NCBI GenBank assembly: GCA_000002435.2
Contig: CM018792.1
Strand: one strand, 5' to 3'
Length of the DNA stretch: 64,000 nucleotides
Source: Giardia intestinalis
Taxonomy: Eukaryota
In this document: positions 5,993 to 31,376 of the stretch, piece after piece
Numbering within the stretch: the stretch's first letter is position 1
Layout of the letters: each line of letters starts with the position of its first letter
Program-made: the position numbers and the translations under genes
Notes under the pieces: model-generated
Databases searched by the model: none
Told to the model about the DNA's origin: nothing
What the model saw: the letters and a program-made list of their open reading frames with translations, nothing else

Positions 5993-8212
5993 CTACAGGT
6001 AGCTGAACCTCGCCGGCCCTGCGTGGGCCTCGCGGTCCAGCTCTCCGAGCCCCAGGTCTCCCCCGACCGCCGACCGCCCGAGGGAGCCGCTGCGGATGAG
6101 GTTCGACATCTCGTCGATGAGGTCTGGCATCGCAAAGTGCTGGGAGCCCCGCGGGCCTGCGTCGCCGTCCTCAAGCGCCTTACTGGACTCGGTGGCCTTC
6201 TTGAGCGTGTCGCTCAGACGCTTGTTGCAGATCCACATGTCGTCGATCAACATCGAAATCACGGAGTTGGCCTCGGTCACCTTGCGCGACTTGTCGAAGA
6301 GCCGCTCGCGCAGGGCCTCGACTTCTGCGCGAAGGTCTGCGTAGCGCTCGACCGTGATGCCCTCGGCCTCGAACTGCTCCATCGCCTCCTGCATCCCGAG
6401 AAGGTTGCGCTGCATCTCCTCCATCTCCTCGAGGAGCTTCTTTGCGTCCTCGTGCTCTGCGCTCAGGGCGTCGAGCTCGCGGCGCGTCTCGTCCAGCTCG
6501 CGCGCCGCGTTGCCTCCCGCGGCTTCGGCCCGGGCCAGCTCTCCCTCGAGCTCTTTGACGCGCTCCTGGGCCGTTATCAGCTGCCCCAGGACGGAGTCGT
6601 CGCTGTTCTGGAGGTCTGTGATGTGCTTCTCGAGCTCGCGGACGTGTGCATTCATGAGCTCGACCTCGCCCCGCGCGGCCTCGACTTCCTGGCGGGCGGC
6701 GGCCTTGACCTCCTCGACCTCCTCCTCCATCGCCTGGGTGTCGCGGACCTTCTCTGCATACCTCGCCTCTGCGGCGGCAACCTTCTTCTCGAGCTCGGAC
6801 ATGTCGTACAGATGGCCCTTCATCTCGCGAATCGCCGCCGCCTGCTCGTCCACCTTTGCACGAAGGTCATCGCGCTCCTGAGCCACGACCTGGAGCTCGA
6901 CCCGGAGCTTCTCAAGCTCGCGGATCGCATCTCCCTGGGAGAGGATGTCCTCGATCGCCTGGAAGAAGCTGTCCGAGTCACGCACGCCGAGGAGATCTGC
7001 AAGGCGCTGGATCGCCTCGGTAAGGGGCTTGTCGGTGACCAGGTTGAACTCCTCGCTCCGGCTGTCGAGGATGAGGGCGGTGACGATGCACGGCTCGACC
7101 TCGTCCTCGTAGACCTGCAGAATCTCCTGGCATTGCCGGTGGCCGTGCTGGACGGCGATGTCGTATGCAGACTGGCCTGCATCGTTCCGGAGCCCGTGCT
7201 CGAGGGGAGCGAGGAGCCCGACGATAGGCGCGTGGCCGGCCAGGGCTGCGTGCTGGAGCGCAGTGGCCTTCCCGGGGGAGTGGCCGAGAGGCGCCGTGCT
7301 CTGGAGGTTGGCCTCGAAGGGCGCGAGGGCCCCGACGATCTCGAGGAAGCCCCGGTGTGCGGCGAACATCATCGCAGTTGTTCCGGTCTTGTTGGGCTGG
7401 GCATTTTCGGCGTCGATGAGGTGCTTCACGCACGCGAGGTGGCCTGCGTCTGCTGCGAGGATCAGGGCGGTCGAGCCCTCGTGGTCGCCGCAGCTCGGGT
7501 TGTCGGGGATCGCCGCGCCGACGTCCTCGGGCGTCCTTTCAATCAGCACTCGGACGGCGTCTGCGCGCCCGAACTCTGCGGCAAGCATGAGGGGCGTCTT
7601 CCCCGACGCATCCCGTGTTCCGCGGTAGAGGTCGGCGAGGAGCGTTACCGAGACGGTGGGGTCTCGCGGAGAGAGGGCGGCATAGTGGAGGGGTGTGCGG
7701 CCCAGGCAGTCCCGGGTCTGGGCGCCTGCGGCCACGTGGGCCCTCAGGGCCGGCTCGTTCAGATCGAGGGCGGCGAGAAGGGGCTCGGCGAGGTACGGCC
7801 GCTCCTGGTCGAACGCCAGGAGTGCCTTCGTGGTCGAGAGGTGGCCGCGGGAGGCGGCGATCTCAATGGCCGTCGCACCAGCTGGGTACCCGAAGGCCGC
7901 GGCGGAAAGCTGCCTCCCAGCCTGGTAGGGCGCGAGGGCTGAGACCGCCGCATCGTGGCCGTGCATGGCCGCCGACATGAGGGCGGTCCAGCCTGTGTCG
8001 CTCCGGATGTCCTTCTCGTACGGGAGAAGGTACTTGACCGTGCCTGTGTGGCCGCCCTGGGCTGCAAGGTGTAGCGCCGTGAGCCCGGGCCCGTCCGGGA
8101 GCACGGCCCCCTGGTACTGCTTGCAATGGACAACGGTGAACTTGATCTCTCCGGACCGCGCCGCCTCAAACCAGGCGTCGAGGTTTCGCTTGTATTGCGA
8201 GTCGTCGGGCAT
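5993..8212 (-). CDS. Ankyrin-repeat + coiled-coil protein (Giardia Protein 21.1 family)
   Basis: The ORF-track start at 8242 is GTG. The first ATG lies 10 codons in (MPDDSQYKRNLDAWFEAARSGEIKF). At least 8 ankyrin repeats are visible (TALHLAAQGGHTGTVKYLL, TALMSAAMHGHDAAVSAL, TPLHYAALSPRD, TPLMLAAEFGRADAVRVLI, TALILAADAGHLACVKHLI, TAMMFAAHRGFLEIVGAL, TALQHAALAGHAPIVGLL). A ~300-aa Glu/Ala/Arg-rich coiled-coil tail follows. Confidence 0.8.
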   Translation of the reverse strand: MPDDSQYKRNLDAWFEAARSGEIKFTVVHCKQYQGAVLPDGPGLTALHLAAQGGHTGTVKYLLPYEKDIRSDTGWTALMSAAMHGHDAAVSALAPYQAGRQLSAAAFGYPAGATAIEIAASRGHLSTTKALLAFDQERPYLAEPLLAALDLNEPALRAHVAAGAQTRDCLGRTPLHYAALSPRDPTVSVTLLADLYRGTRDASGKTPLMLAAEFGRADAVRVLIERTPEDVGAAIPDNPSCGDHEGSTALILAADAGHLACVKHLIDAENAQPNKTGTTAMMFAAHRGFLEIVGALAPFEANLQSTAPLGHSPGKATALQHAALAGHAPIVGLLAPLEHGLRNDAGQSAYDIAVQHGHRQCQEILQVYEDEVEPCIVTALILDSRSEEFNLVTDKPLTEAIQRLADLLGVRDSDSFFQAIEDILSQGDAIRELEKLRVELQVVAQERDDLRAKVDEQAAAIREMKGHLYDMSELEKKVAAAEARYAEKVRDTQAMEEEVEEVKAAARQEVEAARGEVELMNAHVRELEKHITDLQNSDDSVLGQLITAQERVKELEGELARAEAAGGNAARELDETRRELDALSAEHEDAKKLLEEMEEMQRNLLGMQEAMEQFEAEGITVERYADLRAEVEALRERLFDKSRKVTEANSVISMLIDDMWICNKRLSDTLKKATESSKALEDGDAGPRGSQHFAMPDLIDEMSNLIRSGSLGRSAVGGDLGLGELDREAHAGPARFSYL

Positions 8213-8266
8213 CCAGGAATTTTGTGTTGGCTGCAATTTCACATGAACTTGCGATCGGAATTTACA

Positions 8267-10313: not shown

Positions 10314-10324
10314 CAAAATTATAA
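10314..10324. promoter_or_regulatory. 11-nt A/T-only bidirectional initiator between divergent ATGs (CAT caaaattataa ATG)
   Basis: Read directly. It lies inside otherwise very G+C-rich DNA. Confidence 0.5.
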
Positions 10325-11665
10325 ATGCCTATCAGCGATGGCATCCCGACGGCCATCCTCACAGCCCACCGGGGACGCATTCGGGCGCTGCTTCTGACAC
10401 TCCACGGCCAGCTGGGCCTCCGGGAGGTTGTCTTTGCAGCCCTGGCCAACCTTTCCCTGCTCGAGCCCCCAGGGCCCGCTGCGGCACCCACGCCCCTCCC
10501 CGACTATGATTGCTGCGAGCTCTACCAGGTCGTCACCAGGTCTCGCCGTAACCTCCTCCAGTGGCTCCCCCCGCTCCACTTGACCCTTGAAGACCTCCGG
10601 CGTGTCCAGACGCGTGTCCGGGGCGACGCCGAGCTCCTCACGTTCTTCCTTGTTGTGAAGCAGCACGTCACCCGGCTCCGATACACCCACCCCCTGGCAC
10701 AGCCTGGAGGTCCCGGGCTGGCTGCCGCCCCCGAGGCAAGCGCCCGCTGTCGGGACATCGGGTACGCCGCAGCAGACCTCCGAGGGTCAACGCGCGCCAG
10801 TCTGGACCCCGCAGACCTTCTGGGCGGCCCCTTGGAGGACCCGGCGCTGGCTGTCTGCCGCACCCTCCGGGGCCTTCATCCGGCTCCCTGGGTCCTTCCC
10901 ATGGGCGTCCTTGCGCAGCACTACGGCACGTTTCTGCAGCGATCCGGGGTCCAGGGGCCGTTCTTTGTGCGCGTCGTCCAGATGCCCCCGATCACGCCCT
11001 CGGGTGGCCAGGAGTCTCGCCGGCTGTTTTCGCGCCGCCAGTTTCTTGAGGTCGGGCTGTACGTGCGGGCCGGAAGCACGCTCTACACGCTCCTCCTTCC
11101 TCTCGTGGCCGTCGGGCGCGCCCTCCATCACCTCGCCGTGGCCACTCGACTTGCCGCCCCCTGGCCGCTGCTCCTGTCTCCAGACCTGCTCCTGGCAGTC
11201 CGTGTCTCCCCCATCGGCTTCGCCGTCCACGTCCTCTCGACGTTCTGGACCGTCTGCGTCATCTACATCTTTCAGCTCGCGAGCGTTCCCAGCCTCGCCG
11301 CCCTGGCCGCCCTCTACTGGAAGACCTACGTCGTCACGTACGCCGCCAAGGCCCTCATCTACAGCACCGCGAACTTCCTGCCGCCCGCGCCAATCGTCGA
11401 GTTCATCAAGTCTGCAGACCCCGTGGGGGCCGAGGGCGTCCTCTACCACGCGTTCTTCGACGACTTCTTCCGCGAGGACTGCGAGCAGCGGGCCCATGGG
11501 GGCTACCGGAGGGTCGCGCAAGCCCCGGCTGTCTTCAAGCTCCTCGAGGAGGCGAACATCAATCTTCCGCAGCCCCAGGGGCCCCGCATGCACAGCGCCG
11601 CAAGGCTTGTGCTCCTGCTGTTGGCCACGCTGCTTCCAAGCTTCGACCCTCAGAGACGCTTCTAG
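10325..11665 (+). CDS. Hypothetical protein (446 aa) with hydrophobic C-terminal half
   Basis: The ATG sits in catcaaaattataaATG. This is an A/T-rich initiator shared head-to-head with the gene at 9501-10313. The sequence is non-repetitive. Hydrophobic segments are visible (LYTLLLPLVAVGRALHHLAV, FAVHVLSTFWTVCVIYIFQLASVPSLAALAALYW). The stop lies 7 nt before the next ATG. Confidence 0.55.
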   Translation: MPISDGIPTAILTAHRGRIRALLLTLHGQLGLREVVFAALANLSLLEPPGPAAAPTPLPDYDCCELYQVVTRSRRNLLQWLPPLHLTLEDLRRVQTRVRGDAELLTFFLVVKQHVTRLRYTHPLAQPGGPGLAAAPEASARCRDIGYAAADLRGSTRASLDPADLLGGPLEDPALAVCRTLRGLHPAPWVLPMGVLAQHYGTFLQRSGVQGPFFVRVVQMPPITPSGGQESRRLFSRRQFLEVGLYVRAGSTLYTLLLPLVAVGRALHHLAVATRLAAPWPLLLSPDLLLAVRVSPIGFAVHVLSTFWTVCVIYIFQLASVPSLAALAALYWKTYVVTYAAKALIYSTANFLPPAPIVEFIKSADPVGAEGVLYHAFFDDFFREDCEQRAHGGYRRVAQAPAVFKLLEEANINLPQPQGPRMHSAARLVLLLLATLLPSFDPQRRF

Positions 11666-11672
11666 TCAAAAA

Positions 11673-12623
11673 ATGGAAGAGGTCGTCATTGCCACGGGGA
11701 GCTACGACGGGTCGATCAAGCTCTGGCGGCCGACCTCTGAAAGTGCGCTCCGCACGCTGAACTTCGGAAAGGTCGCCAACGGGCTGGCCCTCAGCGCGGA
11801 CCGGAAAGTCCTGCTTGCAGCCGGGTTCTCCGCCACGACCGTTTATGACCTCGGCTCTGCCGGGCGGGACCCAGTCGCCGCCTTCGACGGACACCTCTCC
11901 AACGTCACAGGATGCTGCTTTCTCCAGGGCGACTCGACCGTCGCCAGCGTGGGCGAGGACGGACGCCTTCTGCTCTTCGACACCCGCGGGGGGAAGCAGA
12001 CTAGCTGCATCGTCCACGACGCGGCCCTCAACACGCTCTCTGTCGCGTGCGACCGGGGGGATGCGGCGCTCCTCGTCACGGGAGATCAGGAGGGTCGCCT
12101 GCTTGCGTACGATCTGCGCCAGCCCCGGCACCCCTTCGCAACGACGGTCGCGTTCGAGTGCGACGTCGGCGTCCGTTCGGTCAGCTGCGCCCCGGGGGCT
12201 CAAATCCTCGCGTGCTCTGACGGGCGGGGCATCGTCCGCGTCTACGCCTACAAGGGCAGCAGCCACTTCTTCGCGCCTCAGCAGTCCATCCAGGCGCACT
12301 TGGATGCCGTGATGCACGTCAACCTCTCTCCGGACGGGGCCGTCCTGGCGACGTGCAGCGCCGACAAGACTTGCAAGATCTGGTCCGTTGCTCTTGAGGA
12401 GGACTGCTATCTGACGCGCGCCCGCGTGCTGGGGACAAACGAGGCCACGGTCTGGGCGAGCGCCTTTAGTGCGGACTCGGCGTGCATCATCACGGCCGCA
12501 GACAAGAGCGCGAAGCTCTGGAACATCGCGGGCGACCCGACCGACAAGTATGTCTACGCCTACAACGGGCACTCGCACACCGTGACGACGGTGGTTCTCG
12601 GAGACGTCCGCCTTCCCCTGTGA
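11673..12623 (+). CDS. LST8: LST8 (G-beta-like, TOR complex subunit), 316-aa seven-WD40 protein
   Basis: The ORF-track ORF 10911-12623 carries a spurious Ser/Pro/Arg-rich N-extension overlapping the upstream gene. The real start is aaaaaATGgaagag ([18 protein letters not shown]). It aligns by eye with human MLST8 along its length. Examples: VILATAGYDHTVRFW; LATCSADQTCKIW against [37 protein letters not shown] against [31 protein letters not shown] against YNGHSHTV. Confidence 0.8.
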   Translation: [316 protein letters not shown]

Positions 12624-12657
12624 TTCCCTGCGCCGTTCCCTGCGCGCCTGCAAAAAG

Positions 12658-13842
12658 ATGCTCTATAGCGCTTCAGATGTCGAACGCGTTCCTACGGACT
12701 CCCGAATCTGCGTCCTCCTGACCACCCTCTTTACCGTCCCTCCCGGCGGCGATCCTGCCGAGCCGAGCCAGCGGTGCCCGCGCAAGACGTTTATCTCGGC
12801 GATCCTCGAGGGCTCTGGCCGCGGGCTGCAGGGCTCCTGGGAGGAGGTCGCAGAGCCCGTCTGCCTGCTCGAGGCGTACGATCCCGCCCTGCCCTACGCG
12901 ATCCGGGTCGCAGCGGGCGCCGGCCGGGTCGCCCGGGACCCGACGCTCCCTGCCTCGCACTACCTCTATGCCGCACACAAGCAGGGCCTCTCCGTGGGCT
13001 GCCCACACTATGTCCGGGGCTGCCTCCTCTACTGCGCAGTCTGCGGAGAGCGCTCTCCATGCCGCTTCTGCCACGATGCCTCCCACGACGACCACGAGTT
13101 CCCGCGGACCCGCACGGCAGAGGTCTTCTGTCTCTTCTGCCGCGCCACCGGCCCCATCGGGCTCCGCTGCACACACTGCCAGATGCCCTTCGGGACGCGC
13201 TACTGCGAGACGTGTCGCCTCATCTGCGGAATGGGCCGCGAGGGGCGTCCGAGCTTCCACTGCGCCCGCTGCGGGACGTGCCGGCAGGGCCTTCCGGGGT
13301 ACTCGGAGCACTGCGAGCGTTGCGGGACATGCCACACAGTCGCCCTTGGCCAGGTTCACGCGTGCGCGCCGGACCCCGGGAACTGCGTCTACTGCCTCGA
13401 CGGCCTCCGGGACAACATCTACCCGTACATCGTCCTTCCCTGCGGGCGCCACTCGTGCCACCGCCACTGCTACGAGGCCGTCTTTCGCCTGGGTGGGGCG
13501 AACTACAAGTGCCCGGTCTGCCGCCGGCTCGTCCTCTTCGGGCAGGACAGGGAGCTCTACGAGGCGCGCCTGGAGGAGCTCCGGGGATCGCTTGCGGTCC
13601 CGCCCGAGTACCGGGGCGTCTTCGTCGACTGCGCATGCCACGAGTGCGGCGGGCTCTTTGTCGCCCGGCGCCACCACCTCTACCGCTGCCCGGGCTGTGG
13701 CTCCCACAACGCCGCCGAGCGCGGGCTCTTCAGAGGCGCCGCCGCAGACGCGCGCCGCGCAATCGCGCTCCAGGCCCGCTCCGGGGCGTTTACTAGAACA
13801 GGGCGTCAAGGGCCGCCTCCAGCTGGGCCCCAAACTGGGTAA
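12658..13842 (+). CDS. RCHY1: CHY zinc-finger + CTCHY + RING-H2 + C-terminal zinc-ribbon E3 ubiquitin ligase (Pirh2/RCHY1 type)
   Basis: Motif order: GCPHYVRGCLLYCAVCGERSPCRFCHD..H (CHY finger); CLFCRATGPIGLRCTHCQMPFGTRYCETCRL..FHCARCGTCR..EHCERCGTCH (CTCHY); CVYCLDGL..PYIVLPCGRHSCHRHCYEAVF..YKCPVCRR (RING-H2); CHECGGLFVARRHHLYRCPGCGSHN (zinc ribbon). The ATG is preceded by tgcaaaaag. Confidence 0.8.
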   Translation: MLYSASDVERVPTDSRICVLLTTLFTVPPGGDPAEPSQRCPRKTFISAILEGSGRGLQGSWEEVAEPVCLLEAYDPALPYAIRVAAGAGRVARDPTLPASHYLYAAHKQGLSVGCPHYVRGCLLYCAVCGERSPCRFCHDASHDDHEFPRTRTAEVFCLFCRATGPIGLRCTHCQMPFGTRYCETCRLICGMGREGRPSFHCARCGTCRQGLPGYSEHCERCGTCHTVALGQVHACAPDPGNCVYCLDGLRDNIYPYIVLPCGRHSCHRHCYEAVFRLGGANYKCPVCRRLVLFGQDRELYEARLEELRGSLAVPPEYRGVFVDCACHECGGLFVARRHHLYRCPGCGSHNAAERGLFRGAAADARRAIALQARSGAFTRTGRQGPPPAGPQTG

Positions 13843-20630: not shown

Positions 20631-21449
20631 ATGTCTATGTTCACCTCCACCCGTACGCTCACCCAGACGATGGACAAGCCCGACGACCTCACCCGCAGTG
20701 CGACCGAGACGGCGGTCAAGCTCAGCAACATGAACCAGCGCGTCAGCAGGTTCCACGACAAGATGGAGAACGAGATCGAGGTCCGCCGCGTCGACGACGA
20801 CACGCGCGTGAAGATGATCAAGGACGCCATCGCACACCTCGACAGGCTCATCCAGACGGAGTCGAGGAAGCGCCAGGCCTCGTTCGAGGACATCCGCGAG
20901 GAGGTCAAGAAGTCCGCCGACAACATGTACCTAACGATCAAGGAGGAGATCGACACCATGGCTGCAAACTTCCGCAAGTCCCTTGCGGAGATGGGCGACA
21001 CACTCAACAACGTTGAGACAAATCTCCAGAACCAGATCGCCATCCATAACGACGCCATCGCGGCTCTCAGGAAGGAGGCCCTCAAGAGCCTGAACGATCT
21101 CGAGACGGGCATTGCCACGGAGAACGCAGAAAGGAAGAAGATGTACGACCAGCTCAACGAGAAGGTCGCAGAGGGCTTCGCCCGCATCTCCGCCGCGATC
21201 GAGAAGGAGACGATCGCCCGCGAGAGGGCCGTTAGCGCTGCCACGACAGAAGCGCTCACAAACACGAAGCTCGTCGAGAAGTGCGTCAACGAGCAGCTCG
21301 AGAACGTCGCCTCGGAGATCCGCGCTATCCAGGAGGAGATCGACCGCGAGAAGGCCGAACGCAAGGAGGCAGAGGACAAGATCGTCAACACTCTCGAGGA
21401 CGTCGTCTCGAAGATCCAGGGCGGCCTCTCGATGGTCACAAAGCACTAA
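20631..21449 (+). CDS. bg: Beta-giardin (SF-assemblin family striated-fibre / ventral-disc protein)
   Basis: The translation MSMFTSTRTLTQTMDKPDDLTRSATETAVKLSNMNQRVSRFHDKMENEIEVRRVDDD...IQGGLSMVTKH matches Giardia beta-giardin as I remember it. The classical 259-aa form starts at the internal ATG at 20670 (MDKPDD). The A/T-rich initiator gttaagaaaataaaaggATG supports 20631 as the first codon. A poly(A) signal AGTAAAT lies 9 nt after the stop. Confidence 0.95.
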   Translation: MSMFTSTRTLTQTMDKPDDLTRSATETAVKLSNMNQRVSRFHDKMENEIEVRRVDDDTRVKMIKDAIAHLDRLIQTESRKRQASFEDIREEVKKSADNMYLTIKEEIDTMAANFRKSLAEMGDTLNNVETNLQNQIAIHNDAIAALRKEALKSLNDLETGIATENAERKKMYDQLNEKVAEGFARISAAIEKETIARERAVSAATTEALTNTKLVEKCVNEQLENVASEIRAIQEEIDREKAERKEAEDKIVNTLEDVVSKIQGGLSMVTKH

Positions 21450-21457
21450 GCGCCTGC

Positions 21458-21472
21458 AGTAAATCATTTACT
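21458..21472. terminator. Perfect palindrome AGTAAAT-C-ATTTACT: poly(A) signals for both convergent genes
   Basis: The Giardia poly(A) consensus AGTRAAY reads AGTAAAT on the plus strand 9 nt after the beta-giardin stop. On the minus strand it reads AGTAAAT overlapping the RING-gene TAA stop. Confidence 0.55.
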
Positions 21473-23915
21473 TAGGGAGTCCGACTACCTCGCCGCCGCA
21501 CCGCATCTGCACCACGGGCTGTCTGCAGAGCGCACACCGTCCGGATCGGAGCACGAGGCGTGCGGCGCACTCTGCGCAGAAGTAGTGGTTGCAGTTGAGC
21601 ACCACGATTGCCGCGCGGCAGAGCGCTCTGAGGCAGACTGCGCAGACCTCCTCATCTGCGTCTCCGTCAGAGGCGCTTTCCGACCCCTGCACCATGTCGG
21701 GGTGTGTCGAAGACTCTCTCTCGGTGTCTTCCTGCCGTCCTCGGGGCTCGATGACCATCTCCTTTGCTATGGACCCATCAAACTGGGCATAGGTCCAGGA
21801 CACCCGTTCCGTAGCCAACGTAGTAATGGCCTCAGTTTCCCTTGCAACGGCCCTGGATCCGAGGCGCCAGGATTCAAAGGGAGCATTCTGATCGGAATAG
21901 TAGTCTGTGTTGGTGTAGTCACACTGTTCAGGCCTAAACATAAAGTGTTCTGTGCTCTTGTCAGCCAATTCATCGAGCGTTGCTTTCTTGAAGATAGAGT
22001 AGAAATTAAGACTTTTCAGCGACTCCGGTGGATGCGTAATAAGTGAGGCATAATATGTCATGTACCGTAGCGCAGCAAACGCAGCCACCTGGTGATTTTG
22101 AACACTAAATTCCTTGTTGTCCAATACCCGATAGGCGTAAATTGCGAGGATATGTTTGAGGGAGTTGAGAAAGTGCTCGCCGTGTGACAAAGGTTTATAC
22201 TCATTGAACAGAATGTACGCCACCAGAGGCGAATACCCTGGTCCCAAATTTGGGCAGTTTGTTTGAAGCCACTGTGCAGCAGCCCCAGTAAGTTCCTCTT
22301 CGTGTACAGCAGGACCAGCATGGGAAAGAAGTAGGAGGAGCAAATTTGCCCTCTGGCCAATGCCCTTTGCAACCAATTCGGCACAGCCTTGATAGATATG
22401 CAAGAGCCTCTCATCAATGGTGGATTTGCTCAGTTCAATTTCAAGGACTTTGGCACAGGTGTCAACAAACATGAAAAGATGCGGAAGACAGTTGATGCGT
22501 TGTAGCTTTGCAGTTGCTAGGGTTGCAATAAGCGCATCTGGACCCTCCACATATGATTCGGCCAATCCGTCTGCAAGATGGGAGAGAAATGATCTGCATA
22601 TTTGCTTGTTTGTGGGGAACGCTGCTATGGGGTATGCAATCGCCTCAGAAAGCTCCTTGATTTCAAAGCTGCGCATTACAACCTCGTCAAAAAATTCTGC
22701 TGGCCGACAGTGTTCGTTTTCGTATGCAATCTGATAGCACAAGAGATAAATATGCACAAGGTCGGACTCACTAGGGTTTGAGAAATCAATTTCGTGATGT
22801 AAAGGATGAAGGTCGAGACGTGAGATGGCTTCTCTTGCAACTAGACCAGAGTCTAGGATAAGGTGCCGGCCAATATTTGATATGTGCGTAAGGATGTCGT
22901 TCGACACCATCTTATTGAAATGCAGATATGAACAGGCTCGGTAGAACTGAGCCATGACCCCCGTTTGATAAGGGTAGCCATTTAGGCCCATATCTAGGGC
23001 AAGATTAGCAAAGAAGCTGTACAGCACAGTCGAGTACAGAGACGATAGAAAGGTCACTGCGAGCTGAATTTGTTTCTCGTGGTATGCCACCAGACCTGAT
23101 ATTTTATGCTGTACAAACGCCACCTCAAGGGCAGTCCTAGTTGGAGGCATGGGTGACATGAGAAAGCAGTGCATGAAAGAAAAAAGAGCCAAATACCATG
23201 CATAGGGTGTGTGTGTGACGACGATCTCACTCAGAATTCCTGCCAGCTCTGCTGCATCTTCATTTGTATAGTTCTTTAGCGGCAGTAGGTCATCCAAATC
23301 AAAAGTGCGGGATGTTAAAAGCATAAGAGCCTTGTAGATAGCCGTGTTTTCACTAGAGGGAGCTTCGGGAACAAAGGCTATCAAGTGGCCCAATAGTTCT
23401 ACAGAGAGCTGCTTGTTGTACGCGTGGCATACAATAAGCTTCTTGTAAATAGGTATGGTTGTATAGATACCAACACGCCCTGTGCGTGCGGTTTGAGCCT
23501 CCTTGGAGTCAGAGGCCGTGCCTGTGGCGAGCACAACAGAAAGGACAAACTCATAAATGAAGAGGGTCTCCTCTATCGGGCCCTCGCTAGAGCCTGGCTT
23601 TGGAGGAATGTCGGTACTTACTTCTTGCAACGATAGAATCAAATGCGTCCCGCGAATAATAGAACATTTGTCTTGCTGCAAGAGCATGAGCCCACTAGCA
23701 ATAACATCACTATCTATATAAACAAAAGGGTCGTGCAGGTACATCTGCAGGTCTCCAAGAACAAACACATGAAAGCTGTTTCCTGGCGTTAAGACGACTG
23801 CCTCGGAGAGAAGACTCAGAGTCTTATCCGAAACTATGTACGCGTTCCTCTGGACTCGGCTCGCACGGTGTAGCATGCCAGAAAGAGAAGTGATGTCCAA
23901 AGGTCTTCTGAGCAT
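21468..23915 (-). CDS. Large RING-finger (C3HC4) protein, probable E3 ubiquitin ligase (815 aa)
   Basis: C-terminal RING: CAVCLRALCRAAIVVLNCNHYFCAECAARLVLRSGRCALCRQPV. The ATG is preceded by cttcaaagtaaATG. The stop TAA overlaps AGTAAAT on the minus strand. Confidence 0.75.
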   Translation of the reverse strand: MLRRPLDITSLSGMLHRASRVQRNAYIVSDKTLSLLSEAVVLTPGNSFHVFVLGDLQMYLHDPFVYIDSDVIASGLMLLQQDKCSIIRGTHLILSLQEVSTDIPPKPGSSEGPIEETLFIYEFVLSVVLATGTASDSKEAQTARTGRVGIYTTIPIYKKLIVCHAYNKQLSVELLGHLIAFVPEAPSSENTAIYKALMLLTSRTFDLDDLLPLKNYTNEDAAELAGILSEIVVTHTPYAWYLALFSFMHCFLMSPMPPTRTALEVAFVQHKISGLVAYHEKQIQLAVTFLSSLYSTVLYSFFANLALDMGLNGYPYQTGVMAQFYRACSYLHFNKMVSNDILTHISNIGRHLILDSGLVAREAISRLDLHPLHHEIDFSNPSESDLVHIYLLCYQIAYENEHCRPAEFFDEVVMRSFEIKELSEAIAYPIAAFPTNKQICRSFLSHLADGLAESYVEGPDALIATLATAKLQRINCLPHLFMFVDTCAKVLEIELSKSTIDERLLHIYQGCAELVAKGIGQRANLLLLLLSHAGPAVHEEELTGAAAQWLQTNCPNLGPGYSPLVAYILFNEYKPLSHGEHFLNSLKHILAIYAYRVLDNKEFSVQNHQVAAFAALRYMTYYASLITHPPESLKSLNFYSIFKKATLDELADKSTEHFMFRPEQCDYTNTDYYSDQNAPFESWRLGSRAVARETEAITTLATERVSWTYAQFDGSIAKEMVIEPRGRQEDTERESSTHPDMVQGSESASDGDADEEVCAVCLRALCRAAIVVLNCNHYFCAECAARLVLRSGRCALCRQPVVQMRCGGEVVGLPK

Positions 23916-24271: not shown

Positions 24272-26779
24272 ATGAACTGGGCAGAATTTTCAAAAACCGC
24301 GGAAACCATAGCTGCGCTTACTCCTTTTACCCTGGCGCCACAACAGAGGGCTGTGACCCCGGTGGCTCCTTACATGGAGCTAGCCATCCTGAGTGGAGAG
24401 AGCATAGATACCGCTGGCTCGGGCCTTTCTGATGTATCGTGTCCTCCACTGTCAACTGTAGAGGCCCCAATCTGGGGGTCTTTAGCACTTTCCACATATA
24501 GTGATCGTGAGCCAGACCCTGCTCTTCGGGCTGCATTTCAAGCTTGGCGTGCCCAGGCAAAGATGAGGAGATTGATCCTAAAACCGTATAGACGCATTGT
24601 CCGGCGATGGCACCGTCTAACAGAAGAGTCTAAGCGAGGAGAAGTCGCTTGGTCATTTTATCGACAAGCACTTTTGCAGAAGGCCTTCAATTCTCTTTTG
24701 TATCGAGTTACCACTTGCACCCATCTCACCGCACGACTGGGGTTTAAAACTCTGAGGGATATTGCTACCATAAGGAAACACGAACGCGATGTGGCTGACG
24801 AATACTACTGTGCCCGTCTTTGTGCCAAGACTTTACGCGGCCTTTTTCAATCAATTACAAAGCGCTGCCGGATCTTTCTCCAAATCCAGAGGGCTCGCGA
24901 ACTGCGTCTTCTCTCTCATACGTTTAGGCACATGCGAGTCGAGGCGTCTCTCATTGCATTAGCATTTCGCATTTATCGACGCATAACACTACATAAAGTT
25001 GTTTCCATTTGGCGACGTATGCTGCGTATTCATGTGGTAGAACAGCGCGTTAACCAGGTGATCTTACGTCACTGCTTCATTAGGTGGCGGCACCGATACA
25101 GACGCAGTCTTGCGCTCTTGCGTGATATGTATGTCCGCCAGGGGTATGACGAAGATCTGGCGCTTACTCTGGCGATTGCTTCAGAGAACGTCTGCCTCTT
25201 GCTCCGCGCTTTCTATAGTTGGCTGAAAAGAACAAGACATAAGTTACATCAGAAAATGTTGCAATCCGTCATTAATGCATTTCAGCGACAGCATCTTTTG
25301 CGGTCTGCCCTATGCAGTATAACGGAGCGTTACAAAACGATACTGGCGAGACGCCAGGCTATTTCTTCGTGTCTGCAGTCTATTGATCGTCGAACTTTGA
25401 TCCTTACCCTCAGAAGATGGAAGGGCAACGCGCAAAGTGCTAAGATTGCCCGTATTTCTTCCAATATGGTCGCACGCGAGCATAACCTCCTAGTACAGGA
25501 ACAGGCTTTCTGTGCCTGGAGAGTTGCTTGGAATATGCATCGTACAGCAAGAGCAAGATATGGTCCACTTGCATCTTCTCTGAATAGGATTCTTGTGCGT
25601 TATATATTTCACGAGTTGCAACAGAAGTACGAGGAGAACCGCTGCCGATTGGAGCGGGCAACTGAATTCCACGAAATACTGGTGAAACAATCGCTACATA
25701 AAGTGTTTAGTGCCTGGTATGTACGTTTTCTAGAACAAGAAAACACCGTGCAATTTCTCAGCTCTATTGTACACACGCTGGCAGACAGAGCCTATGATGT
25801 CTGTCACACGCGGGTACTTCGTCCTGGGAAGTGGTTTCTCGATACTCCTTCTTATAGACTTCTACGGAAGGCTTGGGATGCTTCCTGGTGGAAGTACAAA
25901 AAGCGTTCTGCTTATAGAGCAGTTCTCTTGCAAGCAGACAAGGATTATAACAATAAAGCTCTTGTGCGCACATTCTCTACATGGAGAATTGAGACAAAAG
26001 TATCTATTCTTTTGGCAATCTGGTACCCCAGGATACTTAGTGGCACCTTCACAGCTTGGCGCCTGGCTGCAGAAGGAAGTCGAGCGATTGCCCTTATGGA
26101 GTCCCAAGCCAGAATGAAGCATGAATACTCTTTGATGCATTGGACTTTCTGCTACTGGAAGCACATACGCAAGGTCTTGTCCACAGAGCGCCAGCTAGAG
26201 CAGACAATCTACTATAGAAGAGCCACACACATCCTCATATTATCGTTTAGAAGCTGGCACGCTGCGTATCTTCAAGACGTATATCTTAGAGCCAAAGAGC
26301 AGGAAGTGGCAGCCTCATGGTCCCGAACATCCCTTGCTATTGCACTGCGCAGCATATGCGCGGCGTACCTTTCACGCTTACGCTTCAGGGCAAACAGGAG
26401 GAGAAACGTGTTCACTGAGACGCTCGAAGGAATAACCGCCAGCCTTTCTTCCATCTGCATCGGCCGTTTGCTACTGGACATCCGCACGGAGCACATGAGA
26501 ATGTTGGTCCATATCTCACCTTTAAGGGTCGGGCAAATAGTCAAGAGCCCAGTCGCTGCTGTGGTGTGTGATCAAGGGTCTTCCCTACGTAGCTCACCCG
26601 AGCGTTCGCACTGGGAAATATTACGGGGACATAGAGAGAAGTACAGGTCAACGTATGAAGAAGATAGCGTTGGGATCATCCCACACAAAGTCCAGGACTG
26701 CGGGGCTCGGCAGCTCATTGATATCCTTGACAACAAGATAGCAGCACTCGGTCATCGTCTGGCAGGATGTAGCCCATAG
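24272..26779 (+). CDS. Sfi1-like centrin-binding repeat protein (835 aa)
   Basis: At least 11 copies of the Sfi1-type repeat core (F/L-x-x-W-K/R/H), spaced ~30-35 aa apart: AFQAWRAQ, VRRWHRL, VSIWRRM, FIRWRHR, FYSWLKR, TLRRWKG, AFCAWRV, VFSAWYV, TFSTWRI, TFTAWRL, TFCYWKH, SFRSWHA. The protein is basic and alpha-helical. Confidence 0.65.
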   Translation: MNWAEFSKTAETIAALTPFTLAPQQRAVTPVAPYMELAILSGESIDTAGSGLSDVSCPPLSTVEAPIWGSLALSTYSDREPDPALRAAFQAWRAQAKMRRLILKPYRRIVRRWHRLTEESKRGEVAWSFYRQALLQKAFNSLLYRVTTCTHLTARLGFKTLRDIATIRKHERDVADEYYCARLCAKTLRGLFQSITKRCRIFLQIQRARELRLLSHTFRHMRVEASLIALAFRIYRRITLHKVVSIWRRMLRIHVVEQRVNQVILRHCFIRWRHRYRRSLALLRDMYVRQGYDEDLALTLAIASENVCLLLRAFYSWLKRTRHKLHQKMLQSVINAFQRQHLLRSALCSITERYKTILARRQAISSCLQSIDRRTLILTLRRWKGNAQSAKIARISSNMVAREHNLLVQEQAFCAWRVAWNMHRTARARYGPLASSLNRILVRYIFHELQQKYEENRCRLERATEFHEILVKQSLHKVFSAWYVRFLEQENTVQFLSSIVHTLADRAYDVCHTRVLRPGKWFLDTPSYRLLRKAWDASWWKYKKRSAYRAVLLQADKDYNNKALVRTFSTWRIETKVSILLAIWYPRILSGTFTAWRLAAEGSRAIALMESQARMKHEYSLMHWTFCYWKHIRKVLSTERQLEQTIYYRRATHILILSFRSWHAAYLQDVYLRAKEQEVAASWSRTSLAIALRSICAAYLSRLRFRANRRRNVFTETLEGITASLSSICIGRLLLDIRTEHMRMLVHISPLRVGQIVKSPVAAVVCDQGSSLRSSPERSHWEILRGHREKYRSTYEEDSVGIIPHKVQDCGARQLIDILDNKIAALGHRLAGCSP

Positions 26780-26783
26780 TTCG

Positions 26784-27269
26784 TCATCTTATCTCCTTGT
26801 ACGTCATATCCTTGATGTGTTCGAGGGCGAAGTTGAGAATCAGGTCGACGGGAGATTCGTCAAACAGCCCTCTACTGATCACGGTTGTGACTCCCCTGTT
26901 GCAGCACCTGGCGTACCCATCTGTGGATCGGATCATGGCTTCTTCCTGAGGACTGGCAACCAGTATGGTTGGCCCCGTCAGCAAGGATCTGTCAAGCAGG
27001 TCTGCCAACACGCTGCTCGTCCGGTCGTTGACTAGGAAGACGAATATCTGAGAAGCGGAGAGCTTTTGCTTCATGTACTCGCTGATGGGCTTGTCCGTAG
27101 CGGCCGCGAAGAAGTGGAACCTGTATGCATTCACATCCCTGATGACCGTGTGGAACGAGTAGCCCAGATGCTCCGACTCCCCCGCTACAGAACCAGGGAA
27201 GGCCGTCTCTAGCTGGGCCGAATCACCGAAAAGGGAGACTTTCACGTCTGCAATAACAGGGCGGCTCAT
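26784..27269 (-). CDS. V-type ATPase subunit F-like protein (161 aa, with insertion)
   Basis: KVSLFGDSAQLETAF ~ KLIAVIGDEDTVTGF. QIFVFLVNDRTSSVLADLLD ~ DIGIILINQYIAEMVRHALD. GPTILVASPQEE ~ SIPAVLEIPSKE (human ATP6V1F). The ATG is preceded by cctaattaaaaagctctATG. Confidence 0.5.
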   Translation of the reverse strand: MSRPVIADVKVSLFGDSAQLETAFPGSVAGESEHLGYSFHTVIRDVNAYRFHFFAAATDKPISEYMKQKLSASQIFVFLVNDRTSSVLADLLDRSLLTGPTILVASPQEEAMIRSTDGYARCCNRGVTTVISRGLFDESPVDLILNFALEHIKDMTYKEIR

Positions 27270-27332: not shown

Positions 27333-30300
27333 TTACTTTCTAAAGTCCCAGCAGTCCCCGTTGTTTGAAAGCTGGCCGCTCTTAGTGAAGATACTGGTGG
27401 TGCTATCCACGGGGTCGTAGACACGGCTCACAGACATCTCCGTCGCCGTGCAATCTGATATCATGGGGAAGAGCTCGCTATCGGTCAATGACACCACACT
27501 CATGCTAACCTCGATCATCGTCTCCTTGTAGTCCTTCGAGCGCATGAACTCCATACTATAGAGGTACCTGAACGTGACGTTCTGGCATATTCCACCGAAG
27601 AAGAGCCCGGCCCAGATGAGGTACTGGCAGAAGAAGATGGCTCCGAACGTCTCCAAGAGCCCCGTCCCCAGCGTCAGGCTCCTAATGCTCTCGGGGACCA
27701 CCTCTAATACGTAGGGAGTCGCCAAGCCCTTGGGCCCTGCCAGGATGTCCAGGAGCCTATTGAGCTGGACGTCGAGCGGCTCTATCACGTGCTTGTTGAC
27801 GGTACTTCCAAGCTCCATCAAAAGCGTGTCGTACATATGCTGAGAAAACCGCGGGTACAATCCTCCGGACAGGTTCTTCGAAACCATGTTTGCTTCGATG
27901 ATATCTAAGAGGATGGACAAAGGGGAGACTACAGCGTTGAGCAGCTCTGTGTATGCATCTATGAAGCTGACCTCATCGGTTGAAAAGCTACTCCAATCTT
28001 TAAACACATCCACAAACCGCTCATAGACCCTTGTTGTGTCTAGCACCACATCTAGTGCCCCGCTGGAGCCATCGTTCGGATTGCTCGCAGCATTCCAGCC
28101 AATCGTCTGGAAGCCCTTTTCCTGAAGCGCATACACGAGGTCTCGCACGGCTGCGTATGTGTTGGAGACGCAAATGGAGGTCTGTTCTACGGTGTCACCT
28201 GGGCGGATCTTCGTGCACAGGTTTCCAACGAGGTCTGGGTATGGAGACCCGTGGACGATGGAGGACAGGCTAGTGGAGATGCTTGGACACGAAGTCTTGA
28301 GGTTGGTTAGTTCGGCTCTTATCTTCTGCATTGTGCTCTTAATACTGCCCTGTGAACACAGATTCTTATCGACGGGGTTATCGGCAAGGAAGGTCACCGA
28401 GGGGCACTTTGTCATAGCGACCAAAGTATCCAGAAAGTGAATCATGGAAAGGCACTCTGCGACTATCCCCTTCTGGCCCCTAACGGCTTTGGCACTGGCT
28501 TCGAGGGACAGGGCGCTATAGTTCGCGCTGGAGGAAATGCCTCTGATATAGGCCTCAACCTGCGCTGTGACATTCATGGCAGCCAGAGCAGATGCATCAA
28601 CATCTCCGTACAAAGCTGTGCGCTTTTCTGTACTGGAGTATGTGTCGTTATATAGCTTGTGCCCTGCAGAGAAGTCCCCGAACAGGACGGCGTTCGAGAG
28701 CTCGCCACTGAGGAACGCGTTCCTAATCCCGCTAAGAAACGGATCAATGTCCGGAACAATGAAGGTCTCGAGGTACTGTGAGAGGCTGGAGCGGGGGTTG
28801 ATAGCTTCGGGTAGCACCGCGGGCAGCAGTCCTTGGAGCCCGCCCAAAAGATCCGGCAAGCCGAGGATATCGAGGATCCCTCCACCCTTCTTGTTGTAAT
28901 AGAGGAGGTCTTTGATGGACATGCGAGTTGTATCCACCCTCGTGGAAAGGCTCAGAGAGGCCATGCTGTCGTCAGGTTCGGCAGGAATCCCAAACATGCT
29001 CGGCAGGTTTCCGACGGCAACGGTAGCTGTCACGTTGGCGAGGCTCTTACGGAGAGCATCGTATGTGGTGTAATCCAGCACGGCGGACGACGGGGCTGTG
29101 TAGGCTAGGTCGGGGTGCCCCGTGTGCCGGAGCACAAAGGATCCCAGGTCCAGCTGGACCGGCGCAGGGTCTCCTATGACTCCGTTGTCTTTGAGGAGTT
29201 GGAGGACGGTGTCGTAGTTGTTGCGCAGAAGCTTGTCTGGGTTGGTGAGGAGCCCCGAATAGTACTCCAGAGCGAACTTCTGCAGAACCACCGCGACGAT
29301 CCCGAACAGCATCAGGAAAAGCGACACCCAGCAAACAACGCACCCGTTGCAGCACAAAGAGCAGCCAGCGCACCTCGTCTTGAAGCGCGCAGCGCCCACG
29401 ATCCCGCAAATGAACGTCCCGATTGGGACGAGGAGAAGAGCCAGGGCGAGCAAGAAAGGGGCCATCGATATCAGAACGTAATTGCGGCCAGCAGGCGGAA
29501 TCGTTGCCGGATCAAACCCAGAGAGCTTGCAATTCTTCAACGAGTCCAACGCACCGCCTTCTACAGGCAGGTCTGTTATGTAACCGGGGCAGGCCCCGTT
29601 GTTTATGAAGGCGTCGAACAGAGCACGCGCAGTCATCTGCTCCTTGTGGTCGTGGAGTTGCAGCACGTAGTTGATGTACTTGGAGAAGCTGGAGACCTGT
29701 GTCAGGGCATCGGTTGCGAGCTTAGGCAGGTTCAGCTGGTCGCTGATAGATCTGGCGAGCTCTTCGTCTGTTGGTCCTCCCTCGGCCCGCGTGGCAGACG
29801 CACACCACGATAGCTTGCCCTTAAGTGCCGGCTTGCCACACGCCCTCCGGACTATGTCCCCCACGGTTTGCGTCTTCGTGCTGAGTACTTCAAGCAAGTC
29901 AACGAGTAGTTGTGTGTCATCCTTACTCTGCTGTTTGCCAGACGCCTTCGGCCTTAACGAGTCTATAACGAACTTTATCACTATTTCGGGGTTGTTGTTG
30001 ACCGGGACATTCAGATCTGCTCTGTCAATAGGTGAATCGGAGGCAGCAGCAACACTGGACTTTGTTGTGCAATAATTATTTCCTGAGTTATCCTTAAAGA
30101 CCTGCTTGCACACCTTTTCAATGATAGTTTGCCAATTTCCTTGACCTGGTGGTTGCTGCTTATCTAGCGACTTCGCTATCCCGTTGGTGATAGAATTGGC
30201 CGCAAAGACAGCCCCGCCAATAAGAGACTTCTTGTTGATGTTCTTGTAGCTGGCCTCGGAGATTGCCGTGTCATCGGGTGGAGACGGAGGTTGCGTTGAT

Positions 30301-31106: not shown

Positions 31107-31376
31107 CAATTATTATTTGTACTAATTGTCATGCATCATAAGTACGTTTTTCAGAACAGTGCGCCATTCTCCTCCTGGCACACTAGGTACCCTCTGCCGC
31201 CTTTTGCCGCCTCAACGCGGATTGCCTGTCTCAATAATTTGTAGACACTTGTCCGACAATTCGCCGTCTTACCTCTTCTCTTACCGGGGCCAGGGGTCGA
31301 CGAGGTTCCTAAAGTTATACACAAAATCTCGAATTCGTCGATTTCAGATTTAGATTTAAAGCTGCTGAAAATAAAT

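What the first reader, a model, noticed from the sequence alone, without database searches (positions are those of the whole stretch)
24545..26430. Sfi1-like repeat array (12 or more W-K/R/H repeats) in an 835-aa protein
The conserved Trp-basic pairs are regularly spaced in a basic helical protein. This matches centrin-binding Sfi1 repeats of centriole/basal-body fibres. It is relevant to Giardia's eight basal bodies, and it sits 2.8 kb from beta-giardin.
Basis: partly seen in the sequence, partly recalled or inferred. Interest (0 to 1): 0.5.

Follow-up and report, generated by a model that had tools for sequence, protein, structure and literature searches.

The report
Giardia Sfi1-like centrin-binding repeat protein
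This Giardia gene encodes a long helical protein carrying about 13-18 copies of the Sfi1 centrin-binding motif, so it is very probably the parasite's Sfi1-type scaffold for centrin fibres at its basal bodies; public databases already tag it this way, so the reading is correct but not new.

Summary
ORF 24272..26779 (+) encodes an 835-aa protein identical to Giardia duodenalis WB GL50803_4819, deposited as 'hypothetical protein'. It has 11 strict W-[K/R/H] pairs. The core [FWL]xxW[KRH] occurs 8 times against 0.85 expected (0 of 5000 shuffles). A position-free lag analysis gives 33 residues as the top period in all five Giardia orthologues. Leave-one-out scoring supports 13 units plus 5 marginal ones, and 8 of 17 intervals are exactly 33 residues. 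The unit consensus is L-x3-F-x2-W-[K/R/H], the published centrin-binding triad of Sfi1. These triad positions are twice as conserved as the rest against the 24%-identical G. muris orthologue. Pfam Sfi1 (PF08457) scores 25.7 bits against a cut-off of 22. A Giardia-only repeat profile ranks the human SFI1 peptide first and yeast Sfi1p third among 177,635 PDB sequences. The Sfi1 interpretation is supported; centrin binding and basal-body localisation remain untested inferences. The beta-giardin gene does lie 2.8 kb away, but nothing links the two. It is not new: PF08457 is precomputed on this protein, UniRef names the P15 orthologue 'Sfi1 spindle body domain-containing protein', and Li et al. 2006 used Giardia Sfi1 repeats. 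Interest is low.

The parts
24272..26779 (+). Whole gene: 835-aa ORF plus stop codon, equal to GL50803_4819 (G. duodenalis WB), an Sfi1-repeat protein
   Evidence: ORF list; 100% identical database protein with precomputed PF08457; Pfam Sfi1 at 25.7 bits against a cut-off of 22
24272..24493 (+). N-terminal non-repeat region (aa 1-74), acidic and Pro-rich. The orthologues start at Met35 (24374). The conserved motif SLxLSxYxxxEPD (aa 70-82, extending to 24517) sits just before the first unit
   Evidence: Alignments; composition; no Pfam hit
24494..25117 (+). N-terminal sub-array (aa 75-282): units with W-equivalents at 92, 113, 142, 195, 221, 247, 272 and short spacing of 21-29 residues (one 53-residue gap). 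This is the only part the Pfam Sfi1 model recognises (best stretch aa 170-279)
   Evidence: Leave-one-out scores; Pfam on this segment alone 29.3 bits, E = 4.4e-7; unit table
25136..25156 (+). Conserved helix break RQGYDED (aa 289-295); G291 and Y292 are invariant, including in G. muris
   Evidence: Alignment A2; break in the predicted helix at 290-293 (low confidence)
25154..25747 (+). Central block of six units spaced exactly 33 residues apart (W317, I350, W383, W416, L449, W482). Unit 383 reads LILTLRRWK, compared with LLRGALRRWK in the human R18-Sfi1 centrin-binding peptide
   Evidence: lag-33 autocorrelation z = 5.2 for aa 300-735; human peptide sequence from PMC3871271
25748..25915 (+). 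Irregular linker (aa 493-548) holding the conserved PG(K/Q)WFLDTPSY break (aa 518-528, 25823..25855) and W535/W540-K. No unit is statistically supported here
   Evidence: Leave-one-out p = 0.15-0.21 for positions 511, 521 and 540; Pro/Gly positions; alignment
25916..26386 (+). C-terminal block (aa 549-705): units W571, W596, W629, W662, I695, with spacing 25, 33, 33, 33
26468..26776 (+). C-terminal non-repeat tail (aa 733-835): conserved W781-E-x-L-R-G-H-R-E-K-Y-R-S and a terminal helix (aa 810-831, 26699..26764) with L815, L819, D820 and L830 invariant in G. muris. It is a candidate self-association or anchoring domain (inference)
   Evidence: Alignment A2; predicted helix H810-831; no Pfam hit

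Best explanation
The gene encodes Giardia's Sfi1-family protein. Its central ~630 residues (aa 75-705) form a long, basic, mostly continuous alpha-helix carrying 13 well-supported and about 5 weaker copies of the centrin-binding unit L(-7)-x3-F/L(-3)-x2-W(0)-[K/R/H](+1). By analogy with the yeast and human complexes, each unit would bind one centrin. The centrin C-lobe pocket would bury the Trp and the two upstream hydrophobic residues, and neighbouring centrins would contact each other, giving a centrin-coated filament roughly 95 nm long (631 residues at 0.15 nm each). Two Giardia centrins are reported at the basal bodies (PMC12307541, PMC4931700). The filament would therefore most likely link or space basal bodies, or link basal bodies to nuclei or spindle poles, and take part in their duplication and segregation. 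Shown here: the repeat array, its motif, its period, its conservation and its family-level similarity. Inferred: centrin binding, the filament, localisation and cellular role.
For: Pfam PF08457 Sfi1 E = 5.4e-6, 25.7 bits against a cut-off of 22; 34.7 bits for the GL50581 orthologue; 29.3 bits for segment aa 75-300 alone. Motif enrichment: 8 [FWL]xxW[KRH] against 0.85 expected, 0 of 5000 shuffles. Lag 33 is the top autocorrelation lag in all five orthologues, matching the 33-residue repeat of non-fungal Sfi1 (PMC2063913). An ungapped alignment of 65 units gives the consensus L-x3-F-x2-W, which is the L8-x3-L4-x2-W1 centrin-binding triad of Sfi1 (PMC3871271). The triad is hydrophobic in 17 of 18 units. 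Triad positions are identical to G. muris in 25 of 54 cases against 12.3 expected, 0 of 10000 permutations. A Giardia-only unit profile searched against 177,635 PDB sequences ranks the human SFI1 peptide 2K2I_B first (E = 0.074) and yeast Sfi1p 2GV5_C third (E = 0.85), both in register. The array is Pro-poor (7 of 658 residues against 12 of 177 outside) and basic, and is predicted almost entirely helical over 83-746. No other long ORF in the window scores above 3.1 bits with the unit profile. UniRef names the P15 orthologue 'Sfi1 spindle body domain-containing protein'.
Against: Pfam support is borderline and uneven: two orthologues fall just below the cut-off (21.6 and 17.6 bits) and G. muris gets no hit. 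The 33-mer C-terminal half gets no Pfam hit on its own. The PDB reciprocal hits are individually non-significant. Whole-protein homologues exist only within Giardia. Kilmartin's A-x12-[FL]-x2-W-[KRH] pattern occurs only twice, where three hits are required. The array has three irregular gaps and five internal prolines, so it may not be one uninterrupted helix. The structure model is low confidence (pLDDT 38.6). No paper in the library mentions this gene, and the 2016 list of Giardia basal-body proteins does not include it.
Confidence: 0.85

Rival explanations
1. It is an Sfi1-repeat protein but not the functional equivalent of canonical Sfi1. It would be one of several centrin-binding repeat proteins, like the Tetrahymena Sfr family or Paramecium PtCenBP1, serving a different centrin-based structure such as a nucleus-basal body connector, a nuclear centrin-2 pool, or a contractile fibre.
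For: Only the repeats link it to Sfi1; there is no N- or C-terminal homology outside Giardia. Other protists have large Sfi1-repeat families (PMC5483020). Giardia centrin 2 is also nuclear (PMC12307541). I could not scan the Giardia proteome for paralogues.
Against: The unit count (13-18, possibly up to about 22), the central position of the array, the 33-residue spacing and the short non-repeat ends resemble canonical Sfi1 (PMC2173958, PMC2063913). N- and C-terminal domains are not conserved among bona fide Sfi1 orthologues either.
Confidence: 0.2
2. It is a basic amphipathic helical protein that binds something else (microtubules, nucleic acid, calmodulin or another EF-hand protein), and its Trp-basic motif resembles Sfi1 by convergence.
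For: The array is strongly basic (123 K+R against 48 D+E). Pfam support is borderline. The PDB search also picked up an unrelated RxLR effector carrying LRRIFRSWR, which shows that single units can arise by chance.
Against: No IQ motif, even a loose one, is present. The conserved positions are exactly the centrin triad, with the 33-residue period that Li et al. derive from centrin-centrin geometry. Two of the top three PDB hits are Sfi1 fragments solved in complex with centrin.
Confidence: 0.06
3. It is a chance pattern in a Trp-, Arg- and Leu-rich sequence, with no real repeat.
For: W-[KRH] pairs alone are only moderately enriched (11 against 4.9 expected). Segment-against-segment profile comparisons were weak (E = 0.07-0.09).
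Against: 0 of 5000 shuffles reach the observed count of core motifs. Lag 33 exceeds the 99% quantile of the shuffle maximum and recurs in a 24%-identical orthologue. The motif positions are selectively conserved.
Confidence: 0.01

Closest known systems
Human SFI1 (hSfi1)
   Same: Central array of units with the L-x3-L/F-x2-W-[K/R] triad, predominantly 33-residue spacing, a Pro-poor helical array and short non-homologous ends. Giardia unit 383 (LILTLRRWK) nearly matches the human R18 centrin-binding peptide (LLRGALRRWK; PMC3871271). The human R17 peptide is the top PDB hit of the Giardia unit profile.
   Different: Human SFI1 has 23 very uniform units, nearly all 33-mers (PMC2173958). Giardia has 13-18 detectable units in three blocks, a short-spaced (21-29) N-terminal block, conserved helix breaks, and several units with I, L or M in place of Trp. 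The protein is shorter (835 against 1242 aa).
S. cerevisiae Sfi1p (SPB half-bridge; PDB 2GV5, 2DOQ)
   Same: Variable short repeat lengths (23-35) like the Giardia N-terminal block, which is the part Pfam's Sfi1 model aligns to. The consensus is AX7LLX3F/LX2W[K/R]. Degenerate units fill the 'gaps' (PMC2063913). Yeast Sfi1p is the third PDB hit, in register.
   Different: There is no detectable homology outside the repeats. The Ala of the consensus is weak in Giardia (5 of 18 units). Giardia has basal bodies rather than a spindle pole body.
Toxoplasma gondii TgSFI1
   Same: A divergent protist Sfi1 recognised only through its repeats. Triad position 4 is often Phe or Trp, and position 8 tolerates V or I (PMC9406199). 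Giardia has Phe at that position in 13 of 18 units.
   Different: TgSFI1 is 3903 aa with 32 units, all with Trp at triad position 1, and its centrin binding has been measured. Giardia's protein is 835 aa, has Trp-less units, and no binding data exist.
Ciliate Sfi1-repeat proteins (Tetrahymena Sfr1/Sfr13, Paramecium PtCenBP1)
   Same: Centrin-binding repeat scaffolds acting at basal bodies or in centrin fibres of flagellated or ciliated protists (PMC5483020).
   Different: Those belong to large paralogous families with specialised locations. Whether Giardia has paralogues could not be tested here.
POC5
   Same: Contains Sfi1-like centrin-binding units matching [F/W/L]X2W[R/K]. A Giardia homologue of POC5 is reported (PMC2700515).
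   Different: POC5 has only three units, plus coiled coils and a conserved 21-aa signature (PMC2700515). This protein has 13-18 units and is a different gene product.

Membership tests
Sfi1 (Pfam PF08457; Kilmartin 2003, Li et al. 2006) | Score at or above the curated gathering threshold of the Pfam Sfi1 model | tested here: met
   25.7 bits against 22, E = 5.4e-6; 29.3 bits for aa 75-300 alone. This is borderline: the orthologues score 34.7, 21.6, 17.6 and no hit.
Sfi1 (Pfam PF08457; Kilmartin 2003, Li et al. 2006) | Unit consensus AX7LLX3F/LX2W[K/R], including the centrin triad L8-x3-L4-x2-W1 | tested here: met
   An ungapped alignment of 65 units gives L-x3-F-x2-W. In the 18 units of this protein: L at -7 in 14, F/L at -3 in 16, W at 0 in 12, K/R/H at +1 in 11, a hydrophobic residue at -8 in 10, and Ala at -16 in only 5.
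Sfi1 (Pfam PF08457; Kilmartin 2003, Li et al. 2006) | Kilmartin's ScanProsite criterion 1: A-x12-[FL]-x2-W-[KRH], at least 3 hits | tested here: not met
   2 hits (positions 555 and 613), against 0.07 expected. The Ala position is weakly conserved in Giardia.
Sfi1 (Pfam PF08457; Kilmartin 2003, Li et al. 2006) | Kilmartin's ScanProsite criterion 2: [FWL]x2W[KRH]-x21-34-[FWL]x2W[KRH], at least 2 hits | tested here: met
   3 hits against 0.01 expected, 0 of 5000 shuffles.
Sfi1 (Pfam PF08457; Kilmartin 2003, Li et al. 2006) | Repeat length about 23-36 residues, with 33 favoured outside fungi | tested here: met
   8 of 17 intervals are exactly 33 and six are 21-29. Lag 33 is the top autocorrelation lag in all five orthologues.
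Sfi1 (Pfam PF08457; Kilmartin 2003, Li et al. 2006) | About 20-24 continuous units in a central array | tested here: inconclusive
   13 supported plus 5 marginal units. Gaps of 45, 53 and 89 residues could hold 3-4 degenerate units that did not pass leave-one-out scoring. The array is central (aa 75-705 of 835).
Sfi1 (Pfam PF08457; Kilmartin 2003, Li et al. 2006) | Pro-poor array forming a long alpha-helix | tested here: met
   7 Pro in 658 array residues against 12 in 177 outside. DSSP on the AF2 model is nearly all helix over 83-746, but pLDDT is 38.6, so the helix is a weak prediction.
Sfi1 (Pfam PF08457; Kilmartin 2003, Li et al. 2006) | Reciprocal similarity: a profile of its units retrieves bona fide Sfi1 units | tested here: met
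   The top PDB hit is the human SFI1 peptide (E = 0.074) and the third is yeast Sfi1p (E = 0.85), out of 177,635 sequences, both in register. Individually the hits are weak. The search of the large protein database was uninformative.
Sfi1 (Pfam PF08457; Kilmartin 2003, Li et al. 2006) | Direct binding of one centrin per unit | not testable with these tools
   This needs pull-down, ITC or a complex structure. The partner proteins exist in Giardia (PMC12307541).
Sfi1 (Pfam PF08457; Kilmartin 2003, Li et al. 2006) | Localisation to the microtubule-organising centre or basal bodies | not testable with these tools
   No paper in the library mentions the gene, and it is absent from the 2016 basal-body protein table.
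POC5 | Three centrin-binding units including one tandem pair, flanking coiled coils and a conserved 21-aa signature (PMC2700515) | tested here: not met
   13-18 units spread over 630 residues. The architecture is different.
IQ-motif calmodulin or light-chain binding arrays | [FILV]Qxxx[RK]Gxxx[RK] units spaced 23-26 residues apart | tested here: not met
   Zero matches, even to the loose form [FILV]Qxxx[RK]xxxx[RK].

The most novel reading that the evidence does not exclude
The array may be a deliberately segmented and 'coded' scaffold rather than a uniform Sfi1 filament. It has a short-spaced (21-29 residue) N-terminal block, then two strict 33-mer blocks, separated by breaks that are conserved across Giardia (G291-Y292 also in G. 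muris; PGxWFLDTPSY within G. duodenalis). Several units keep I, L or M in place of Trp, some of them also in G. muris (M221, I195). Different blocks or unit types might recruit different EF-hand partners (centrin 1, centrin 2 or others), or differ in Ca2+ dependence as reported for Phe-containing triads in TgSFI1. That would give a hinged fibre adapted to Giardia's arrangement of eight basal bodies and two nuclei.
Probability: 0.15. Interest if true: 0.45.

Novelty: already known. Interest (0 to 1): 0.2.

Why it matters
Giardia must duplicate and partition eight basal bodies together with two nuclei, and centrin marks the basal bodies and spindle poles. An Sfi1-type scaffold is the obvious candidate for the centrin fibre that links and spaces these structures. 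Neither this gene nor Sfi1 appears in the 2016 Giardia basal-body protein table (PMC4931700), and no paper in the searched library mentions the gene. The value here is practical: a defined unit map, including which units are well supported, which lack Trp, and where the conserved breaks lie. That map can be used to design binding, tagging and knock-down experiments. It is not a discovery of a new kind of system.

Tried and rejected
1. A repeat HMM seeded on 33-residue windows stopped after one round because of my own filter. A self-trained PSSM was overfitted. I replaced both with leave-one-out scoring.
2. hhalign of array segments against each other gave only E = 0.07-0.09, because the units are short and the alignment is shallow. 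This was uninformative.
3. phmmer of the whole protein and hmmsearch of the five-species profile against PDB sequences gave no hits.
4. The large-database search with a double-unit profile collected only 94 candidates through its word prefilter and returned one Giardia fragment. MAFFT slid overlapping double units out of register, so I redid the alignment with non-overlapping units.
5. The exhaustive profile search of 1.8 billion representatives and the five-species search found full-length relatives only in Giardia. Orthology to Sfi1 of other eukaryotes therefore cannot be shown by whole-protein homology.
6. The AF2 model has pLDDT 38.6, so I did not attempt a fold search.
7. The supplement of Li et al. 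2006, which would name their Giardia accession, is not held. Lauwaet et al. 2011 is not held.
8. IQ-motif reading: rejected, no matches.
9. I tested whether the GC-rich block at 6-14 kb is rDNA. It is not: Rfam found nothing.
Full report
**What is there.** The window carries an 835-codon ORF at 24272..26779 on the + strand. Its product is 100% identical to GL50803_4819 of Giardia duodenalis WB, deposited as 'hypothetical protein', and already has a precomputed Pfam PF08457 (Sfi1) hit. The 272-aa ORF at 20631..21449 (+) is beta-giardin (SF-assemblin, E = 1.2e-106). A RING-finger gene on the opposite strand (21468..23915) lies between the two. The organism, the protein length and the '2.8 kb from beta-giardin' statement are therefore all correct.

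**Is the repeat real?**
- The protein has 24 Trp residues (2.9%) and is rich in Arg (12.5%) and Leu (11.9%).
- Strictly there are 11 W-[K/R/H] pairs, not 12. Composition-preserving shuffles give 4.9 +/- 1.9, and 17 of 5000 reach 11.
- The fuller core [FWL]xxW[KRH] occurs 8 times against 0.85 expected (0 of 5000).
- [LIVM]x3[FLWIMY]xxW[KRH] occurs 7 times against 0.35 expected (0 of 5000).
- Kilmartin's tandem pattern occurs 3 times against 0.01 expected.
- A test that uses no chosen positions, BLOSUM62 autocorrelation over lags 5-139, puts lag 33 first. The z-score is 4.6 for the whole protein and 5.2 for aa 300-735, above the 99% quantile of the maximum over all lags in shuffles.
- Lag 33 is also the top lag in each of the four other Giardia orthologues, including G. 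muris at 24% identity (z = 3.7).

**Unit map.**
- Leave-one-out profile scoring against a shuffle null supports 13 units at per-position p<0.02. Their W-equivalent residues are 92, 221, 272, 317, 350, 383, 416, 482, 571, 596, 629, 662 and 695.
- Five further units are marginal (113, 142, 195, 247, 449; p = 0.04-0.11).
- Three supported units carry M or I where Trp is expected (M221, I350, I695).
- W127, W521, W683 and W781 are not repeat positions, and W540-K is not supported.
- The intervals between the 18 units are 21, 29, 53, 26, 26, 25, 45, 33, 33, 33, 33, 33, 89, 25, 33, 33 and 33. Eight of the 17 are exactly 33.
- The array therefore has three parts: a short-spaced N-terminal block (aa 75-282), a block of six 33-mers (aa 295-492) and a C-terminal block (aa 549-705).
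- The parts are separated by two conserved breaks. One is RQGYDED, with G291 and Y292 invariant even in G. muris. The other is PG(K/Q)WFLDTPSY at 518-528.
- The array is basic (123 K+R against 48 D+E) and Pro-poor (7 of 658 residues against 12 of 177 outside).
- An AlphaFold2 model is low confidence (mean pLDDT 38.6) but is helical almost throughout 83-746. I treat this only as weak support for helicity, and I did not run a fold search on it.

**What the unit looks like.** An ungapped alignment of 65 units from four orthologues has the majority consensus L-x3-F-x2-W. In the 18 units of the window protein, position -7 is Leu in 14, position -3 is Phe or Leu in 16, position 0 is Trp in 12, and position +1 is K, R or H in 11. 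The three triad positions are all hydrophobic in 17 of 18 units. This is the core of the published Sfi1 consensus AX7LLX3F/LX2W[K/R] (PMC2173958). It is also the reversed centrin-binding triad L8-x3-L4-x2-W1 described for Sfi1 (PMC3871271). The upstream Ala is weak (5 of 18 units), so Kilmartin's A-x12-[FL]-x2-W-[KRH] pattern hits only twice, where three hits are required. Unit 383 (LILTLRRWK) nearly matches the human R18-Sfi1 peptide SQHNRQLLRGALRRWK, which binds centrin 1:1 in ITC (PMC3871271).

**Independent evidence of family membership.**
1. Pfam's curated Sfi1 model scores 25.7 bits against a gathering cut-off of 22 (E = 5.4e-6). This support is borderline. The GL50581 orthologue scores 34.7, two others score 21.6 and 17.6, and G. 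muris gets no hit. When the protein is cut into segments, only aa 75-300 hits (29.3 bits), and the 33-mer half gets nothing. A possible reason, which I did not check, is that the short spacing of the N-terminal block fits the spacing built into the model.
2. The exhaustive profile search of 1.8 billion representatives found one distant full-length relative, G. muris GMRT_13114 (E = 3.5e-28). Across that 24%-identity pair, the three triad positions are identical in 25 of 54 cases, against 12.3 +/- 2.9 for random position sets (0 of 10000). Selection is therefore concentrated on the motif.
3. As a reciprocal test, I searched the 33-column profile, built only from Giardia units, against 177,635 distinct PDB sequences. 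The human SFI1 peptide of the centrin-2 complex (2K2I_B) ranks first (E = 0.074). Yeast Sfi1p of the Cdc31 complex (2GV5_C) ranks third (E = 0.85). In both, the Trp and the Leu/Phe positions are in register. Each E-value is weak, but Sfi1 fragments are presumably only a handful of entries in that database (I did not count them).
4. No other ORF of 200 aa or more in the window scores above 3.1 bits with the unit profile, so the motif is not a by-product of Giardia composition.

**Mechanism (inferred).** In yeast, Sfi1p is a continuous alpha-helix with one centrin wrapped around each unit and with centrin-centrin contacts between units. Fifteen units give a 60-nm filament, and a 33-residue repeat places successive centrins at close to the required angle (PMC2063913). 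Applied here, aa 75-705 would give a filament of roughly 95 nm carrying up to about 18 centrins, possibly hinged at the two conserved breaks. Two Giardia centrins are reported at the basal bodies, and centrin foci are reported at the spindle poles during division (PMC12307541; PMC4931700). The most likely role is therefore a centrin-Sfi1 fibre that connects or spaces basal bodies, or links basal bodies to nuclei, and contributes to their duplication and segregation. None of this was tested here. In Toxoplasma, units with Phe at triad position 4 bound centrin only in the presence of Ca2+ (PMC9406199). Phe occupies that position in 13 of 18 Giardia units, so Ca2+-dependent occupancy is possible. 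This is speculation.

**Rivals.**
- A paralogous Sfi1-repeat protein with a different centrin-related job cannot be excluded, because I could not scan the Giardia proteome.
- A convergent basic helix binding another partner is unlikely. There are no IQ motifs, the conserved positions are exactly the centrin triad, and the period matches the centrin packing geometry.
- Chance is excluded.

**Novelty.** The reading is correct but not new. PF08457 is precomputed on this exact protein and on the GL50581 orthologue. UniRef names the P15 orthologue 'Sfi1 spindle body domain-containing protein'. Li et al. 2006 included Giardia lamblia units in their logo of 454 Sfi1 repeats; the accession is in a supplement I could not read. 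What is missing is experimental work. No paper in the searched library mentions GL50803_4819 under either ID format. The 2016 review of Giardia basal bodies lists neither it nor Sfi1. The 2025 paper on the two Giardia centrins cites Kilmartin 2003 but does not discuss a Giardia Sfi1. The proximity to beta-giardin has no demonstrated meaning.

**Verdict.** The finding is already known at the annotation level, and interest is low (0.2). The most useful output is the unit map, which can guide experiments.

Noticed in passing
window 6000-14000: An 8-kb block is about 67% GC, against 45-52% on either side. It is not rDNA (no Rfam hit anywhere in the window). It holds real genes: an ankyrin-repeat protein at 5993..8242 (-), a WD40 protein at 10911..12623 (+) and a CHY zinc-finger protein at 12658..13842 (+). 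It also has many long spurious ORFs on both strands. The reason for the compositional jump is unexplained.
   Followed up: partly
window 24272-24376: There is a start-codon discrepancy. The window ORF starts at Met1 (24272), but the three G. duodenalis orthologue models begin at or just after the residue matching Met35 (24374; MELAIL...), and the 34 extra residues are not conserved in G. muris. The sequence upstream of 24272 is more AT-rich than that upstream of 24374, so Met1 may still be genuine in WB.
   Followed up: partly
window 25532-26117: A 193-aa database protein from a run assembly (P0005) joins aa 421-542 of the Sfi1-like protein to the +2-frame ORF at 25767..26117. This is most likely a frameshift error in that assembly rather than an isoform.
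   Followed up: no
window 24479-24517 and 26612-26764: Two non-repeat motifs are conserved as far as G. muris. SLxLSxYxxxEPD sits immediately before the first unit. In the C-terminal tail there is W781-E-x-L-R-G-H-R-E-K-Y-R-S, plus a terminal helix with L815, L819, D820 and L830 invariant. They are candidates for anchoring or end-to-end association, as proposed for the Sfi1p termini in yeast.
   Followed up: no
window 27333-31109 (-): A 1258-aa multi-pass membrane-like protein has a weak, sub-threshold Pfam Prominin match (E = 1.8e-5; 23.5 bits against a cut-off of 34.3). A prominin-like protein in Giardia would be worth a separate look.
   Followed up: no
window 26784-27269 (-): A 161-aa ORF with no Pfam family lies convergent to the Sfi1-like gene. 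Its stop-codon end (26784) is only 4 bases from the Sfi1-like gene's stop codon (26777..26779), so the two genes are packed almost end to end at their 3' ends.
   Followed up: no
window 17006-20329 (-) and 13793-16270 (-): Two large ORFs (1107 aa and 825 aa) upstream of beta-giardin have no Pfam match at E<=0.01 and E<=0.001 respectively. I did not examine them further.
   Followed up: no
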